From IMG/VR virus record IMGVR_UViG_3300050821_006672, positions 45,476 through 109,475 of that record: a stretch of DNA of 64,000 bases, one strand, 5' to 3'. The notes under the pieces are model-generated. The model did no database searches, was not told where the DNA came from, and was given only the letters and a program-made list of their open reading frames with translations. Numbering within the stretch: position 1 is the stretch's first letter; every line of letters begins with the position of its first letter. The stretch comes from a virus. Below are positions 19,995 through 23,861 of this stretch, one piece after another. The position numbers and the translations under genes are program-made.

Positions 19995-20013
19995 CTTTTA
20001 AGAGGAGTAAATC

Positions 20014-20538
20014 ATGGTAGCGCGTGTAAGTGCGAAGAGGCAAGAACCAATCGAGGACCGGGTCAAGCCAGTCCCGCAGCCTGCGTCAGGTACTGAAACG
20101 GTAGTCATTGGCTGCAAACTGCCCAACGGCATCATGTTGCGTCAGTTCCGCATGGTGAAGAAGACCCGCAATATCGGCGGCCACTACTTTGATGAGCAAA
20201 TGGCTGAGGATACGGGCCGACGTTTTACTGTCCGGGGGCCAGCCGTACCTTTTGGCCAAATTCCCAACATCCAGATTGTCGGGGGTTACGCCTTGACCCC
20301 CGGCGTTCCCCAAGACTTGGCTGAAATCTGGTTCGATCAGAACAAGGATGCCGATTGCGTCGTCAATCAGCTTATGTTCTGGGAAAGTGACGTGGATCGC
20401 GCTGCGGCTCGCGCTCGTGAACTCAATGCAGTCAGGTCGGGCCTAGAGCCGGTCGATCCCAATAAGACTATTCCTGGTTTGGGAAAAGTCACTAAGGCCG
20501 ATTTGAGCGATAAGGATATGGGTCTTGCGAACAGCTAA
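20014..20538 (+). CDS. Conserved hypothetical head-module protein
   Basis: VIGCKLPNG, GGYALTPGV and SGLEPVDP motifs; syntenic between capsid and DUF4054 in this phage type. Confidence 0.75.
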   Translation: MVARVSAKRQEPIEDRVKPVPQPASGTETVVIGCKLPNGIMLRQFRMVKKTRNIGGHYFDEQMAEDTGRRFTVRGPAVPFGQIPNIQIVGGYALTPGVPQDLAEIWFDQNKDADCVVNQLMFWESDVDRAAARARELNAVRSGLEPVDPNKTIPGLGKVTKADLSDKDMGLANS

Positions 20539-20556
20539 CCGCACGCGTATGATTAG
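20525..20556 (+). promoter_or_regulatory. Sigma70-like promoter TTGCGA-17-TATGAT (GCGTATGATTAG motif)
   Basis: -35 at 20525-20530, -10 at 20548-20553; the motif recurs elsewhere in the window. Confidence 0.65.
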
Positions 20557-20562
20557 GTTGTA

Positions 20563-20698
20563 GCGGGTTCAAGGTGTAATAGCTTTGTACTAATGTGGTG
20601 TCCGGCGATGTCGGAGTTAACACTGACAAAAGTCTTGGTGTGCCCAACGGCAGGAATTGCAAACGGTTCGCCCATGCAAAACCTAACCAAGAGCCCGC
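20563..20698 (+). ncRNA. Candidate structured RNA or 5' leader
   Basis: Closing stem GCGGGTTC/GAGCCCGC with internal pairings TCCGGC/GTCGGA, CTTGGT/ACCAAG and TTGCA/TGCAA; starts just after the promoter. Confidence 0.4.
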
Positions 20699-20708
20699 GA
20701 GGATTTAG

Positions 20709-21140
20709 ATGGGCGTTCAAGTAGGCTTCAACCTAACAGCGTGGCGGGCGCGTTATCCGGAGTTCGATGACGTACCCGATCCGCTGATTCAGCAGTACTT
20801 TACTGAGGCCACGATCTTTCATCGTAATGATGGTGGTGGTCCTGTGAGGGATAGCAATCAGCAGTTGGTCTTGTTGAATATGGTGGTTGCTCACATTTGT
20901 AAGCTGAATGCGCCTGTGCGTGGCGAACCTTCTCCTGATATCGTCGGTCGTATCTCCAATGCAAGCGAGGGTAGCGTGAGCGTCGCTACGGAAATGGACT
21001 TGCCTCCTGGGTCTGCACAATGGTGGGGACAAACCAAATATGGGATTGCGTACTGGACTGCATCCGCGCCGTTCCGACAAATGAGATATAGGGTTGGTCG
21101 TCAGCGAAACTTCAACCCATGGTATCCGGCAGGTTATTGA
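20709..21140 (+). CDS. Head-tail adaptor (DUF4054 family)
   Basis: WRARYPEF, LLNMVVAHI, VGRISNASEGSVSV and WWGQTKYGIAYW motifs. Confidence 0.88.
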   Translation: MGVQVGFNLTAWRARYPEFDDVPDPLIQQYFTEATIFHRNDGGGPVRDSNQQLVLLNMVVAHICKLNAPVRGEPSPDIVGRISNASEGSVSVATEMDLPPGSAQWWGQTKYGIAYWTASAPFRQMRYRVGRQRNFNPWYPAGY

Positions 21141-21149
21141 TTTTTCTGT

Positions 21150-21353
21150 GTTGGGGTTAGCTGGGATCGGGCTAGGTATGTTATGTTTGAGGTACGGTAT
21201 GGTCTTTTTCCTTAGTCAATTTTACCTTTGTGTTGAGTTGTGGCTAGCTAAGGTGTGGTATGTTACGTTGAGGTGAGCTGCGGTAGGTTTCGTTTTCGGG
21301 TAAGTTGAGTTCTGCTAAGCTCAGGTTTGGTACATTCTGGTAAGGTAAGTTTT
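21150..21353 (+). repeat. Three tracts of in-phase G-N-Y-NN pentamers (11, 13 and 11 units); candidate guide-RNA array
   Basis: Tracts at 21150-21205, 21232-21296 and 21299-21353, e.g. GTTGA GTTGT GGCTA GCTAA GGTGT GGTAT GTTAC GTTGA GGTGA GCTGC GGTAG GTTTC GTTTT. Confidence 0.85.
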
Positions 21354-21373
21354 TGCTTCTCGTATGGTAGAGA

Positions 21374-21497
21374 TATCGCGGCGACTAACGCGATAGAAAC
21401 GCGGCACCAATACACGAACCTCCTTCGCGTTCGGTGTCGCTGAAAGGTGACCCCTGTAACTCGCGTTTCCGGGCTTAGTCGGCTGGGCGCGAAGGAG
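21374..21497 (+). promoter_or_regulatory. Structured 5' leader of the RAMP gene with anti-Shine-Dalgarno element
   Basis: Stems TATCGCG/CGCGATA and GAAACGCG/CGCGTTTC; CTCCTTCGCG (21420-29) is complementary to CGCGAAGGAG (21488-97, the RBS). Confidence 0.6.
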
Positions 21498-21505
21498 ACA
21501 CAGCT

Positions 21506-22123
21506 ATGGTAGCCAAGGCTAAGGTAATTCACATCAATGAGCCGACTGATGGGGGCAACGAGGCAATCGGCTATTCGGAACCTTACTCGGTTCGCGTCGC
21601 GCTAGAAGGCGCAGCCGATTACCTGTTTCATCGGTACAACTGCGAATCAGTTGAGGCTAAAAGCAACGCGGCAAAGGGTTCGAAGGCCAAGAAGACTGAC
21701 GACATTGAGAGTTACGTTTGGCGGACGAACGACGGGCAACTTGCCATTCCTGGCGAACATCTTCGCGGAGCGATCATCAAAGCCGCTAAGTTCCGCCAAG
21801 ACCCGCGCTCTCCGCGTAAGTCGGCAATGGATTTGTTTAAGGCCGGCATCGTGGTTACGACAGGATTAGCCCCAGTGGGAAAGAAGGATTGGGATTACCT
21901 CCACAAGGGGCGGGTAGTTGTGCACGGAAGCGCTATCCCCCGCGTCCGTCCTGCGCTTCGGCAGGGTTGGAAGGTAGCTTTTGATGTCTCAGTAATCTTG
22001 CCGGAGTACATTGATAAAAACTCTCTGCGAGAGACTATCGAGGCTGCGGGTCGTCTTTGTGGCCTTGGCGACTATCGACCAACCTTCGGCCGATTTGGGA
22101 TTATTTCTTACCAATCAGCTTAG
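21506..22123 (+). CDS. Stand-alone RAMP (Cas7/Csm3-like) protein
   Basis: 205 aa. First strand VRVALEGAADYLFH; IPGEHLRGAIIKAA (cf. RAMP IPGSSLKG); C-terminal Gly-rich loop GLGDYRPTFGRF. No other cas genes in the window. Confidence 0.8.
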   Translation: MVAKAKVIHINEPTDGGNEAIGYSEPYSVRVALEGAADYLFHRYNCESVEAKSNAAKGSKAKKTDDIESYVWRTNDGQLAIPGEHLRGAIIKAAKFRQDPRSPRKSAMDLFKAGIVVTTGLAPVGKKDWDYLHKGRVVVHGSAIPRVRPALRQGWKVAFDVSVILPEYIDKNSLRETIEAAGRLCGLGDYRPTFGRFGIISYQSA

Positions 22124-22220
22124 GTCTGGTGTGGTTAGTTGGGGTCAGGTGGTGTTTGGTAAGATTTGATCGGGTAAGGTAAGGTCTTTGCGTATGTCTA
22201 AGTTAGTCTAGGTTCTGTTC
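22123..22220 (+). repeat. Fourth G-N-Y-NN pentamer tract (13 units plus degenerate tail)
   Basis: GGTCT GGTGT GGTTA GTTGG GGTCA GGTGG TGTTT GGTAA GATTT GATCG GGTAA GGTAA GGTCT (22123-22187), starting on the last base of the RAMP stop codon. Confidence 0.85.
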
Positions 22221-22255
22221 CCCCAGTCCTCCCCCCGCAGCAGGGCCTAGATGTA

Positions 22256-22303
22256 CCCGCGTCGCTCCCTTCCCCCTCCCCCCGAGCCTGGGAGCGACGC
22301 GGG
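22256..22303 (+). terminator. Perfect 14-bp GC hairpin with C-rich loop (terminator-like or processing signal)
   Basis: CCCGCGTCGCTCCC / GGGAGCGACGCGGG with a 20-nt loop; only a weak U-tract follows. Confidence 0.5.
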
Positions 22304-22327
22304 GAACTCTTTCGAGAGGACCAGCCC

Positions 22328-22558
22328 ATGATTACAGGGTTATTCACCGATGGGCAGTCCGTTGAACTTTCGCTTCCTTGTGACGCGACACTTGCAGTGC
22401 GTTATCTAGGGAATGAGGACGACGTTCTTGTGCCGAACGGCTCTTGCGGTGTTGTGGTATCAGTGCTTGAGTATAATCTAAATACGTTGGCTACTGTCAA
22501 ATTCGATGGACTCAAGCGTGATCTTGTAATCCCCACCAAGTATTTGAAGGCATGTTGA
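22328..22558 (+). CDS. Hypothetical protein
   Basis: GAGGA RBS; 76 aa. Confidence 0.55.
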   Translation: MITGLFTDGQSVELSLPCDATLAVRYLGNEDDVLVPNGSCGVVVSVLEYNLNTLATVKFDGLKRDLVIPTKYLKAC

Positions 22559-22704
22559 TATGAGCGAGTGCCTTTTCAAGCTTTCAGAGGCTCACGGAGC
22601 ATGGTGCTACAGTTGGCGGCCTGTTCCTATGGTCGAAGGTGCTCCACGCCTCAAGAAAGTTCCATTTGGCTACGTTTTGATGCGTTACGAAGGGAAGCGT
22701 TTAC

Positions 22705-23241
22705 ATGGCTGACCGCAAATACCTCCCGACTTTCGCCGATCTCGTTGATAGGCTCTGCATTACGCAGATGAAAGCGATCTTCATCCCTGAACGGCAGGGC
22801 GAATACGTTGAAGAAATGTCGTTGATTATGCATGACATCGATCTTATCTTGGAAAGTCAAGCTAAGACGATTGCCGCTACTGACGTTCGTGCGATGCTTG
22901 TGCTTATGTTGAGCAACCGTTTCATATGGGAGAATGAAACAAAAGCGCGAGCGGGCGGGACGGATCAGGACAAGCTTCTTAAATTGACTCATAGTATAAA
23001 TGGCGTGAGGAATACAGCTAAGAATGCATTGGCCCATATTGATGGCGGTCGGAGAGACTTCAAAACGGATTGCTTTGCTGCGGAGTTAGTTGCTGACTTC
23101 GGTAATTGGAATGTATTTGGAGTGCAGAACGGCGAGGCTCGATGGGAAACCGATCAGAGAAATTATACTCAACTGGCGGATAGACGGGATAAATCTGTGC
23201 ATGGTGGGGCTGGGCGTGTTCTGCCCTCGTCGGATTATTAG
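22705..23241 (+). CDS. Helical protein of the kind seen in sugar-synthesis clusters (DUF4254-like)
   Basis: LPTFADLVDRLCITQMK...IWENE...NGVRN pattern; first gene of the sugar cluster. Confidence 0.5.
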   Translation: MADRKYLPTFADLVDRLCITQMKAIFIPERQGEYVEEMSLIMHDIDLILESQAKTIAATDVRAMLVLMLSNRFIWENETKARAGGTDQDKLLKLTHSINGVRNTAKNALAHIDGGRRDFKTDCFAAELVADFGNWNVFGVQNGEARWETDQRNYTQLADRRDKSVHGGAGRVLPSSDY

Positions 23242-23246
23242 GCAAG

Positions 23247-23861
23247 ATGCTCCAAATCGTAGCTAGAAACCGAATAACGCGCAGCGACTTGCAGGAGTTT
23301 ACGCAGCGCGTTGCCGACGCGTTCAATGCTGGCGAAATCCACGCTCCCGTCCACCTTAGCGGCGGCAATGAAGATCAGCTGATTGATATCTTCTCGGAGA
23401 TCGCTCCAACCGACTGGGTATGCTCAACATGGCGTAGCCATTATCATGCGATCCTCAAAAACATTCCTCAAGAACAACTGATGTCGGACATTCGTGCGGG
23501 ACGCTCGATCTCATTGTGCTATCCAGAACACCGTCTTATTTCCTCGGCAATTGTTGCGGGCTGTTTGCCCATTGCGGTGGGTCTTGCCTGGTCCATCAAG
23601 AATGCCGAGAAGGATGAGCACGTCTGGGCCTTCTGTGGTGATATGGCAGCGACAACCGGAATATTCTCCGAGTGCACTCGATACGCTGAGAGCTATCGCC
23701 TTCCCGTTACGTTCATAATTGAGGATAATGGCAAGTCGGTCTGTACGAATACCAAACAAGTTTGGAACGGACAACACGATAATTGGCAAAGCAATGTGCG
23801 GTATTACTCCTACAAACTGCCATGGCCCCATAGTGGTGCCGGCAAACGAGTGAACTTCTAA
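23247..23861 (+). CDS. Minimal TPP-dependent E1-alpha-like subunit
   Basis: HLSGGNE and STWRSHYHA; TPP-binding motif variant GDMAATTG...IIEDN. Confidence 0.88.
   Translation: MLQIVARNRITRSDLQEFTQRVADAFNAGEIHAPVHLSGGNEDQLIDIFSEIAPTDWVCSTWRSHYHAILKNIPQEQLMSDIRAGRSISLCYPEHRLISSAIVAGCLPIAVGLAWSIKNAEKDEHVWAFCGDMAATTGIFSECTRYAESYRLPVTFIIEDNGKSVCTNTKQVWNGQHDNWQSNVRYYSYKLPWPHSGAGKRVNF

What the first reader, a model, noticed from the sequence alone, without database searches (positions are those of the whole stretch)
21150..22187. Variable dinucleotides of the four tracts spell four different candidate target codes
Seen NN strings. T1: GG TA GG CG TA AT AT TG AC AT CT. T2: GA GT TA AA GT AT AC GA GA GC AG TC TT. 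T3: AA GA CT AA CA TT AC CT AA AA TT. T4: CT GT TA GG CA GG TT AA TT CG AA AA CT. The strings are mutually unrelated, unlike a slippage-generated microsatellite. Every tract ends in a T-run (GGTCTTTTT, GTTTT, GTTTTT, GGTCTTT), which suggests unit boundaries or processing sites. Inference: 22-26 informative bases per tract are enough for a unique address. If one target base is skipped between dinucleotides, recognition could ignore codon wobble positions. I could not search for targets by hand.
Basis: partly seen in the sequence, partly recalled or inferred. Interest (0 to 1): 0.85.

Follow-up and report, generated by a model that had tools for sequence, protein, structure and literature searches.

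The report
Phage VIPR guide-RNA arrays

Summary
Four plus-strand tracts of 11, 13, 11 and 13 pentamers G-N-T-N-N flank one 205-aa gene. They are unique in the 109-kb phage genome and absent from shuffles. The four NN strings are exactly as read and are mutually unrelated.

The gene encodes a Vipr protein, a minimal Cas7-like RAMP. Its profile hits SUSP1 Vipr (PDB 36pp) at E 7e-12, hhalign gives 98.4%, the top folds are Cas7/Csm3, and the GGY-contact residues are conserved. Three 2026 bioRxiv preprints describe VIPR. Its vrRNAs are 9-16 GGY/NN repeats whose NN bases pair with DNA while skipping one target base, usually the codon wobble.

In 57 loci of this Vipr clade, 50 carry such arrays. NN differs even in an 87%-identical syntenic relative. 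My own cross-target test shows enrichment only at a 1-nt skip (60 hits against 0 in shuffles). Two independent guides drive it, and both are aimed at rival vipr genes.

No natural target of T1-T4 was found. There is no self-match and no exact hit in the viral, metagenome or genome collections.

Local peculiarities are a relaxed second G, U-run tails instead of a pseudoknot, and no vap gene. This scan has met VIPR before on other DNA. Verdict: a new member of a known kind, of modest interest.

The parts
21150..21205 (+). vrRNA array T1: 11 G-N-Y-NN units with a 1-nt insertion (A21190). The last unit, GGTCT, probably begins the tail.
   Evidence: terminal GGTYT plus U-run recurs in relatives
21206..21231 (+). 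Short T1 tail: a U-run plus TTAGTCAATTTT (21212-21223). The same motif separates arrays in L127 and L001.
21232..21296 (+). vrRNA array T2: 13 units ending GTTTC GTTTT, with no separate tail before T3
21299..21353 (+). vrRNA array T3: 11 units ending GTTTT-T
21354..21505 (+). Conserved structured leader of vipr, possibly also the T3 tail. It has the hairpin 21374-21395, whose loop GACTAA pairs with TTAGTC at 21475-21480 (a pseudoknot), and a long stem that covers the AAGGAG ribosome-binding site.
   Evidence: loop/partner covary in L001: GATCAA/TTGATC; 76% nt identity to L127
21506..22123 (+). vipr gene: a 205-aa minimal RAMP (Cas7-like) protein
22123..22187 (+). vrRNA array T4: 13 units, with a 14th in-register unit at 22118. 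It overlaps the vipr stop codon and is absent from the syntenic relative L127.
22188..22302 (+). T4 tail (TTAGTC at 22203-22208) followed by two strong hairpins with C-rich loops (stems 22206-22219/22239-22252 and 22257-22269/22290-22302). The hairpins are also present right after vipr in L127.
   Evidence: z = -3.8

Best explanation
The locus is a VIPR (Viral Interference Programmable Repeat) system of an uncultivated ~109-kb tailed phage. It consists of one vipr gene (21506-22123) and four guide-RNA (vrRNA) arrays on the same strand, three upstream and one downstream. By homology with the SUSP1 system, one Vipr protomer binds each pentamer. It buries the constant G-N-Y bases and presents the two variable bases. 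The resulting filament reads double-stranded DNA as NN-x-NN-x, skipping every third target base, and blocks transcription of the bound gene. Each tract would therefore address a 30-38-bp site using 20-26 informative bases. The likely targets are competing mobile elements of the same host: rival phages, satellites or prophages. What is shown here is the anatomy, the homology and fold of the protein, the conserved array-gene association, the hypervariability of NN, the absence of self-targets, and the 1-nt-skip rule operating in this clade. What is inferred is the expression and processing of the four RNAs, filament formation, silencing, and the identity of the targets, none of which were found.
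For: Protein. The profile of 21 family members hits PDB 36pp 'SUSP1 Vipr protein' at E 6.7e-12, and the single sequence hits at 1.8e-8. hhalign to SUSP1 Vipr from the phage record gives 98.4% and E 8e-15. SUSP1 H17, R138, D177, W178 and R179, the GGY contacts named in 10.64898/2026.04.26.720927, align to H42, R148, D189, Y190 and R191. The four non-aromatic ones are invariant in the family alignment. The AF2 model (pLDDT 75.8) is closest to type VII Cas7 and Csm3.
Arrays. There are 11, 13, 11 and 13 units against the published range of 9-16. All are strand-specific, intergenic and unique in the genome.
Association. 50 of 57 loci with a clade homolog carry arrays (139 arrays, 2784 units; G 97%, G 77%, Y 95%, then near-even N N). 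Conversely, 27 of 119 loci found only by a (GGTNN)x5+GGT DNA pattern encode a Vipr-profile hit.
NN hypervariability. In L127 (87% identical Vipr, syntenic) the leader and gene align at 76% nt identity, but the arrays do not align at all.
Rule. Best 10-unit windows with at least 19 of 20 matches numbered 60 at skip 1, against 2, 0 and 2 at skips 0, 2 and 3, and about 0 for shuffled guides. The skipped base is always codon position 3.
Self-targeting. There is no self-target at skips 0-2 above shuffles, as the paper reports for its own systems.
Against: No target was found for T1-T4. Exact 1-skip patterns of 10-13 units gave nothing in IMG/VR, in JGI metagenomes (T2) or in GTDB genomes (T4 and T2). 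Mismatch-tolerant scans of 2.6 Mb of held loci stayed at shuffle level. The scaffold is looser than published, with G at position 2 in only 54% of units. T1 has a frame slip. T2 runs into T3 without a tail. No SUSP1-like pseudoknot tail follows T1, T2 or T4. No vap accessory gene is recognisable. There are no expression data. The skip-1 enrichment rests on only two independent guides that hit one conserved gene in many loci.
Confidence: 0.9

Rival explanations
1. The tracts are Vipr-binding RNAs but not working guides. They could be decayed arrays, or decoys or sponges that titrate or regulate Vipr, for example by binding in the untranslated regions of its own mRNA, without addressing any foreign DNA.
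For: No target was found in any collection. G2 is relaxed. T1 has a frame slip and T2/T3 are fused without a tail. The arrays sit in the 5' and 3' untranslated regions of vipr, next to a leader that can cover its ribosome-binding site. Solo and decoy vrRNAs are documented in 10.64898/2026.10.15.759431.
Against: Positions 1 and 3 are kept in 46 of 48 units and the 5-nt phase is nearly perfect, which argues for ongoing selection. NN entropy is high and the guides differ between close relatives, as expected for guides in an arms race. Relatives of the same clade have guides with clear targets. The collection searches needed exact matches and the host is unknown, so a miss is weak evidence.
Confidence: 0.08
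2. The tracts are binding sites for a ring-shaped or other RNA-binding regulator in the manner of TRAP, which binds (G/U)AG triplets spaced by 2-3 nt. The NN bases would then be mere spacers with no information.
For: The 5-nt period and 11-13 units resemble TRAP sites. This was my first thought, from established knowledge, before any search.
Against: The adjacent protein is a RAMP homologous to SUSP1 Vipr, not a TRAP fold. In relatives the NN strings spell rival vipr codons at a 1-nt skip far above chance, so NN carries information.
Confidence: 0.01
3. The tracts are neutral simple-sequence DNA, either a slippage microsatellite or a compositional oddity.
For: None beyond the periodicity.
Against: The units are not copies of one another, with 15 of 16 dinucleotides used. 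Shuffles give no such tracts. All are on one strand. The tracts are conserved next to vipr homologs in 50 of 57 loci with otherwise different neighbours.
Confidence: 0.01

Closest known systems
Type II VIPR of Escherichia phage SUSP1 and the Pseudomonas fulva prophage (bioRxiv 10.64898/2026.04.26.720920, 10.64898/2026.04.26.720927 and 10.64898/2026.10.15.759431; PDB 36pp)
   Same: Both have a single small RAMP gene flanked by same-strand arrays of about 9-16 pentamers with a constant triplet and two hypervariable bases. The G-loop GDxRPxFGRF and the GGY-contact residues are conserved. Both are phage-borne and lack self-targets. In this clade the guides obey the 1-nt skip with the skipped base on the wobble position, and some are aimed at rival vipr genes, as reported for the SUSP1 family.
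   Different: Identity to SUSP1 Vipr is only about 31% over 156 aligned columns, so this is a separate clade, and its type could not be assigned because the paper's tables are not held. There is an extra invariant basic insert, RQDPRSPRK. The second scaffold base is relaxed (G-N-Y here; 54% G in the window and 77% in the clade). Tails are a U-run, with or without TTAGTCAATTTT, instead of a ~40-nt pseudoknot. There is no vap1 or any conserved neighbour gene. The locus sits inside the late head-neck gene block. The targets are unknown.
Class 1 CRISPR-Cas backbone proteins (Cas7, Csm3/Cmr4, type VII Cas7)
   Same: The RRM core, thumb and glycine-rich loop are shared, and these are the best structural matches. 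One protomer binds each repeat of guide, with bases flipped out periodically.
   Different: There is no CRISPR array, no other cas genes and no PADLOC hit. The guide period is 5 nt with 3 bases hidden, rather than 6 nt with 1 hidden. The guides are genome-encoded and are not acquired spacers.
TRAP-binding sites and type III toxin-antitoxin RNA repeats (ToxI)
   Same: Tandem short RNA repeats lie next to the gene of the protein that binds them.
   Different: The protein folds and repeat lengths differ, and in those systems the variable positions carry no address.

Membership tests
VIPR system | Vipr protein: a minimal RAMP with RRM core, thumb and G-loop, homologous to SUSP1 Vipr | tested here: met
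   PDB 36pp hit at E 6.7e-12 (profile) and 1.8e-8 (single sequence); hhalign 98.4%; top Foldseek hits are Cas7 and Csm3
VIPR system | Residues that hold the GGY bases (SUSP1 H17, R138, D177, W178, R179) | tested here: met
   They align to H42, R148, D189, Y190 and R191. H42, R148, D189 and R191 are invariant in 21 family members. The aromatic residue is Y or F instead of W.
VIPR system | vrRNA arrays of about 9-16 GGY/NN pentamers in the intergenic DNA flanking vipr, on the same strand | tested here: met
   11, 13, 11 and 13 units. The scaffold is G-N-Y, looser at position 2 than the published GGY.
VIPR system | NN hypervariable while the scaffold is conserved among related loci | tested here: met
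   The L127 arrays cannot be aligned although the flanks are 76% identical. Clade logo: G 97%, G 77%, Y 95%, N, N.
VIPR system | Conserved structured 3' tail after each array (a pseudoknot in the SUSP1 clade) | tested here: inconclusive
   T1 and T4 have a U-run plus a TTAGTC motif and T2 has none. Only T3 is followed by a pseudoknot-like element, which is also the vipr leader.
VIPR system | Adjacent vap accessory gene (present in six of the seven published types) | tested here: not met
   tblastn finds no homolog of SUSP1 vap1 or of the DSL-LC04 neighbour gene. No neighbour gene is conserved across the clade. This feature is typical rather than universal in the paper.
VIPR system | Guides match foreign DNA under the 1-nt skip rule and do not match their own genome | tested here: inconclusive
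   There is no self-target. The rule holds for two guides of relatives. No target was found for T1-T4.
VIPR system | vrRNAs are expressed and co-purify with Vipr, and the complex represses the target | not testable with these tools
   This needs small-RNA sequencing, pull-down and a reporter assay.
CRISPR-Cas | CRISPR array of 25-40-nt repeats with acquired spacers, plus further cas genes | tested here: not met
   There are no such repeats and no PADLOC or Pfam Cas hits in the neighbours.
TRAP-type RNA attenuation | TRAP-fold ring protein binding (G/U)AG triplets | tested here: not met
   The protein has a RAMP fold and the constant triplet is G-N-Y.

The most novel reading that the evidence does not exclude
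This Vipr clade (over 6,000 proteins in the big database, with no Pfam family) may be a vap-less, minimal form of VIPR. It would need only G1 and Y3 of the scaffold, end its guides with a U-run instead of a pseudoknot, and be used largely for vipr-against-vipr warfare. That would include guides embedded in frame inside the vipr gene itself, next to the owner's recoded copy of the target site (seen in L151/L154). The embedding hints at how new guides arise or how self is distinguished from rival. I did not see these details in the main text of the three preprints.
Probability: 0.3. Interest if true: 0.5.

Novelty: new member of a known kind. Interest (0 to 1): 0.3.

Why it matters
The locus adds an environmental large-phage example of VIPR from a clade far from the two studied systems. 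It shows which features hold: the RAMP contacts, the 5-nt phase, hypervariable NN, and the 1-nt skip on wobble positions. It also shows which features vary: the second scaffold base, the tail, the accessory gene and the genomic position. It gives a concrete set of four natural guides, of 20-26 informative bases each, whose targets could reveal what competes with this phage. The relaxed G-N-Y scaffold is a natural experiment on how much of GGY the protein really needs, which bears on redesigning VIPR guides as tools. As a discovery it is not new, since the mechanism was published in 2026 and this scan has already met several VIPR loci.

Tried and rejected
1. My first hypothesis was a TRAP-like ring-protein binding site or a CsrA/Hfq-type sponge. 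I dropped it once the neighbouring gene proved to be a Vipr/RAMP.
2. I considered a G-quadruplex array (G2N3 repeats). I rejected it because the second G is present in only 54% of units here.
3. Rfam gave no family hit in 20000-23500 apart from a sub-threshold F6 sRNA match on the hairpin at 22248-22311. No hammerhead ribozyme was found between the arrays.
4. Target hunting covered the following.
   - The own genome at skips 0-3.
   - All held loci.
   - Exact NN-x patterns for T2 and T4 at full length.
   - T2 and T4 units 2-12 in IMG/VR, T2 in metagenomes, and T4 and T2 in GTDB genomes.
   - T3 and T1 units 1-10 in IMG/VR.
   - T2 with 3 mismatches in the full record of L001.
   All of these were negative.
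L127 served instead.
6. 'relatives' is not available for a virus record, so no host pangenome could be searched with mismatches.
7. The paper's supplementary tables are not held, so the VIPR type could not be assigned.
8. The promoter/terminator scan found nothing on the + strand.

Full report
**1. Observation**

The region holds four tracts with a strict 5-nt period, all on the + strand.
- T1 is 21150-21205, 11 units, with one extra A at 21190.
- T2 is 21232-21296, 13 units.
- T3 is 21299-21353, 11 units, starting 2 nt after T2.
- T4 is 22123-22187, 13 units. Its first unit overlaps the stop codon of the gene it follows.

Over the 48 units, position 1 is G in 46, position 3 is T in 46 (C in 2), and position 2 is G26/T14/C5/A3. 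Positions 4-5 use 15 of 16 dinucleotides (3.65 of 4 bits).

A scaffold scan finds these four places and nothing else in the window or in the whole 109,475-bp genome, and nothing in shuffles. The contig ends overlap, so the genome looks complete. The four strings are no more similar to one another than shuffled strings.

**2. Context**

The window is a tailed-phage genome. Upstream lie a minor head protein, the major head protein (PHROG 264) and a DUF4054 virion protein. No cultured phage is close, with major capsid identity below 52%.

T1-T3 fill the gap between the DUF4054 gene and a 205-aa ORF (21506-22123), and T4 follows that ORF. The ORF has no Pfam family and matches only PHROG 4652, of unknown function.

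**3. The protein**

The 205-aa protein belongs to a large unnamed family of 6,137 database proteins. The family has strongly conserved motifs, IPGE.LRG and a C-terminal G.GD[YF]RPT[FY]GRF.
- A profile of 21 members hits one solved structure, 36pp 'SUSP1 Vipr protein', at E 6.7e-12. The single sequence hits at 1.8e-8.
- hhalign against the SUSP1 gene product from the phage record gives 98.4% probability.
- The AlphaFold model (pLDDT 75.8) is closest to type VII Cas7 and Csm3 backbone subunits.
- The residues that the cryo-EM preprint names as holding the GGY bases (H17, R138, D177, W178, R179) align to H42, R148, D189, Y190 and R191. All but the aromatic one are invariant in the family.

**4. 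What is known**

Three bioRxiv preprints of 2026 describe VIPR systems.
- A phage-encoded minimal RAMP, Vipr, polymerises one protomer per pentamer on vrRNAs made of 9-16 GGY/NN repeats plus a 3' tail.
- The NN bases pair with double-stranded DNA while every third target base is skipped. The skipped base falls mostly on codon wobble positions.
- No PAM is needed, and binding silences transcription.
- Natural targets are satellites, prophages and rival VIPR loci, and no self-targets are seen.

**5. Evidence from relatives**

Seven IMG/VR and 49 metagenome loci encode clade homologs at 48-87% identity.
- With the window's own genome that makes 57 loci, and 50 of them carry arrays. The total is 139 arrays and 2,784 units, with a logo of G 97%, G 77%, Y 95%, N, N.
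- The neighbouring genes differ between loci, and no accessory gene is conserved across the clade.
- Conversely, a bare DNA pattern of six GGT spaced by NN pulled out over 119 viral loci. Of these, 27 have a Vipr-profile hit in the fetched stretch, including all the multi-tract ones.
- L127 carries an 87%-identical Vipr and is syntenic with the window. Its leader and gene align at 76% nt identity but its arrays do not align at all. It has at least six upstream arrays and no T4 equivalent.

**6. Independent test of the skip rule**

I parsed all clade arrays and searched their NN strings against all held DNA (2.8 Mb, arrays masked) at skips 0-3. Unit-shuffled guides served as the control.

Best 10-unit windows with at least 19 of 20 matches:

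| Skip | Real guides | Shuffled guides (mean per shuffle) |
|---|---|---|
| 0 | 2 | 0.2 |
| 1 | 60 | 0 |
| 2 | 0 | 0.6 |
| 3 | 2 | 0.2 |

The signal comes from two independent guides.
- L167:4636-4710 spells the minus strand of the G-loop codons A-D-F-R-P-T-Y-G-R of vipr in 42 loci.
- L151:2499-2558 (identical to the array in L154) spells W-D-Y-L-D-T-R-R-V of vipr in 21 loci.

In both, the skipped base is always codon position 3. The window's own vipr matches these guides at only 21/30 and 16/24, below the 80% threshold used in the preprints.

**7. Targets of T1-T4**

None were found.
- The own genome has no match above shuffles at skips 0-2.
- The held loci have none.
- Exact NN-x patterns of 10-13 units have no match in IMG/VR, JGI metagenomes or GTDB genomes.

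These scans required perfect matches, and the host is unknown. The miss is therefore weak evidence against function, but the addresses remain unread.

**8. Local peculiarities**

- The second scaffold base is relaxed, so the unit is G-N-Y. The preprint describes base-specific hydrogen bonds for G1, a steric pyrimidine pocket for Y3, and only a salt bridge and stacking for G2. Tolerance at G2 is plausible on that basis, but this is my inference.
- Tails are short. Each tract ends in G[GT]T[CT]T followed by a T-run, and 63 of 114 terminal arrays in the clade carry TTT across the end. T1, T4 and the L127 and L001 spacers also share TTAGTC[AC]ATTTT.
- Only T3 is followed by a larger structure, the conserved vipr leader. 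Its hairpin loop GACTAA and the downstream TTAGTC change together in L001 to GATCAA and TTGATC. A long stem covers the AAGGAG ribosome-binding site. This could be a pseudoknot tail, an autoregulatory leader, or both.
- No vap gene is recognisable.
- T2 and T3 are separated by only 2 nt, and T1 has a 1-nt slip. The preprint mentions staggered arrays and internal degeneracy.

**9. Verdict**

The finding is real and is explained. It is a new member of the VIPR kind, with minor variant features. Confidence in that assignment is about 0.9. Silencing of a competitor is inferred by homology and was not shown here. Interest is modest because the mechanism is published and this scan has already found VIPR loci on other DNA.

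Noticed in passing
L151:2117-2791 (array at 2499-2558); the same in L154:939-1613: A 12-unit GGY/NN array lies in frame inside the vipr ORF, giving a 225-aa protein with a ~22-aa insert just before the WD.LD motif. Its NN string spells W-D-Y-L-D-T-R-R-V as rival vipr genes write it (21/24 matches in 21 loci, perfect over the best 10 units). The owner's own copy, 8 nt downstream, is recoded (WDFLDTRRV with other Leu and Arg codons) and matches only 18/24. Two independent groundwater assemblies show the same arrangement.
   Followed up: partly
L167:4636-4710: A 15-unit guide just downstream of vipr matches the antisense strand of the G-loop codons (ADFRPTYGR) of vipr in 42 other loci, with the skipped base on the wobble position. 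This looks like vipr-against-vipr targeting in this clade, as reported for the SUSP1 family.
   Followed up: partly
window 21354-21505: The vipr leader is conserved in L127 and L001. A hairpin loop and its downstream partner covary (GACTAA/TTAGTC against GATCAA/TTGATC), which supports a pseudoknot. A 17-bp stem sequesters the AAGGAG ribosome-binding site.
   Followed up: partly
window 22206-22302: Two strong hairpins with long C-rich loops lie after T4 (z = -3.8 against shuffles). The same element follows vipr directly in L127. Its function is unknown; it could be a terminator, or the C-runs could pair with G-rich guides.
   Followed up: no
L127:3013-3858 compared with window 21150-22187: The syntenic relative has at least six upstream arrays and none downstream. 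Two of its arrays share a block of about five units, pointing to guide duplication. T3 and the last L127 array share a short run of units (GTTGA .. GCTAA GCT[CG]A). Whole guides are evidently gained, lost and duplicated.
   Followed up: partly
L177:2501-3118 (Phage DSL-LC04, OR003939.1): This is the only cultured-collection phage with a close homolog (55% identity). Its Vipr is annotated as 'helix-turn-helix transcriptional regulator', which is probably a misannotation. GGY/NN arrays fill the 320 nt upstream.
   Followed up: partly
window 23247-23861: A thiamine-diphosphate E1-type dehydrogenase-like gene (Pfam E1_dh, E 1e-13) sits inside the phage structural region, shortly after the VIPR locus.
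   Followed up: no
G000 contig ends: The first and last ~50 bases of the 109,475-bp contig overlap. This suggests a circularly closed or terminally redundant complete genome.
   Followed up: no
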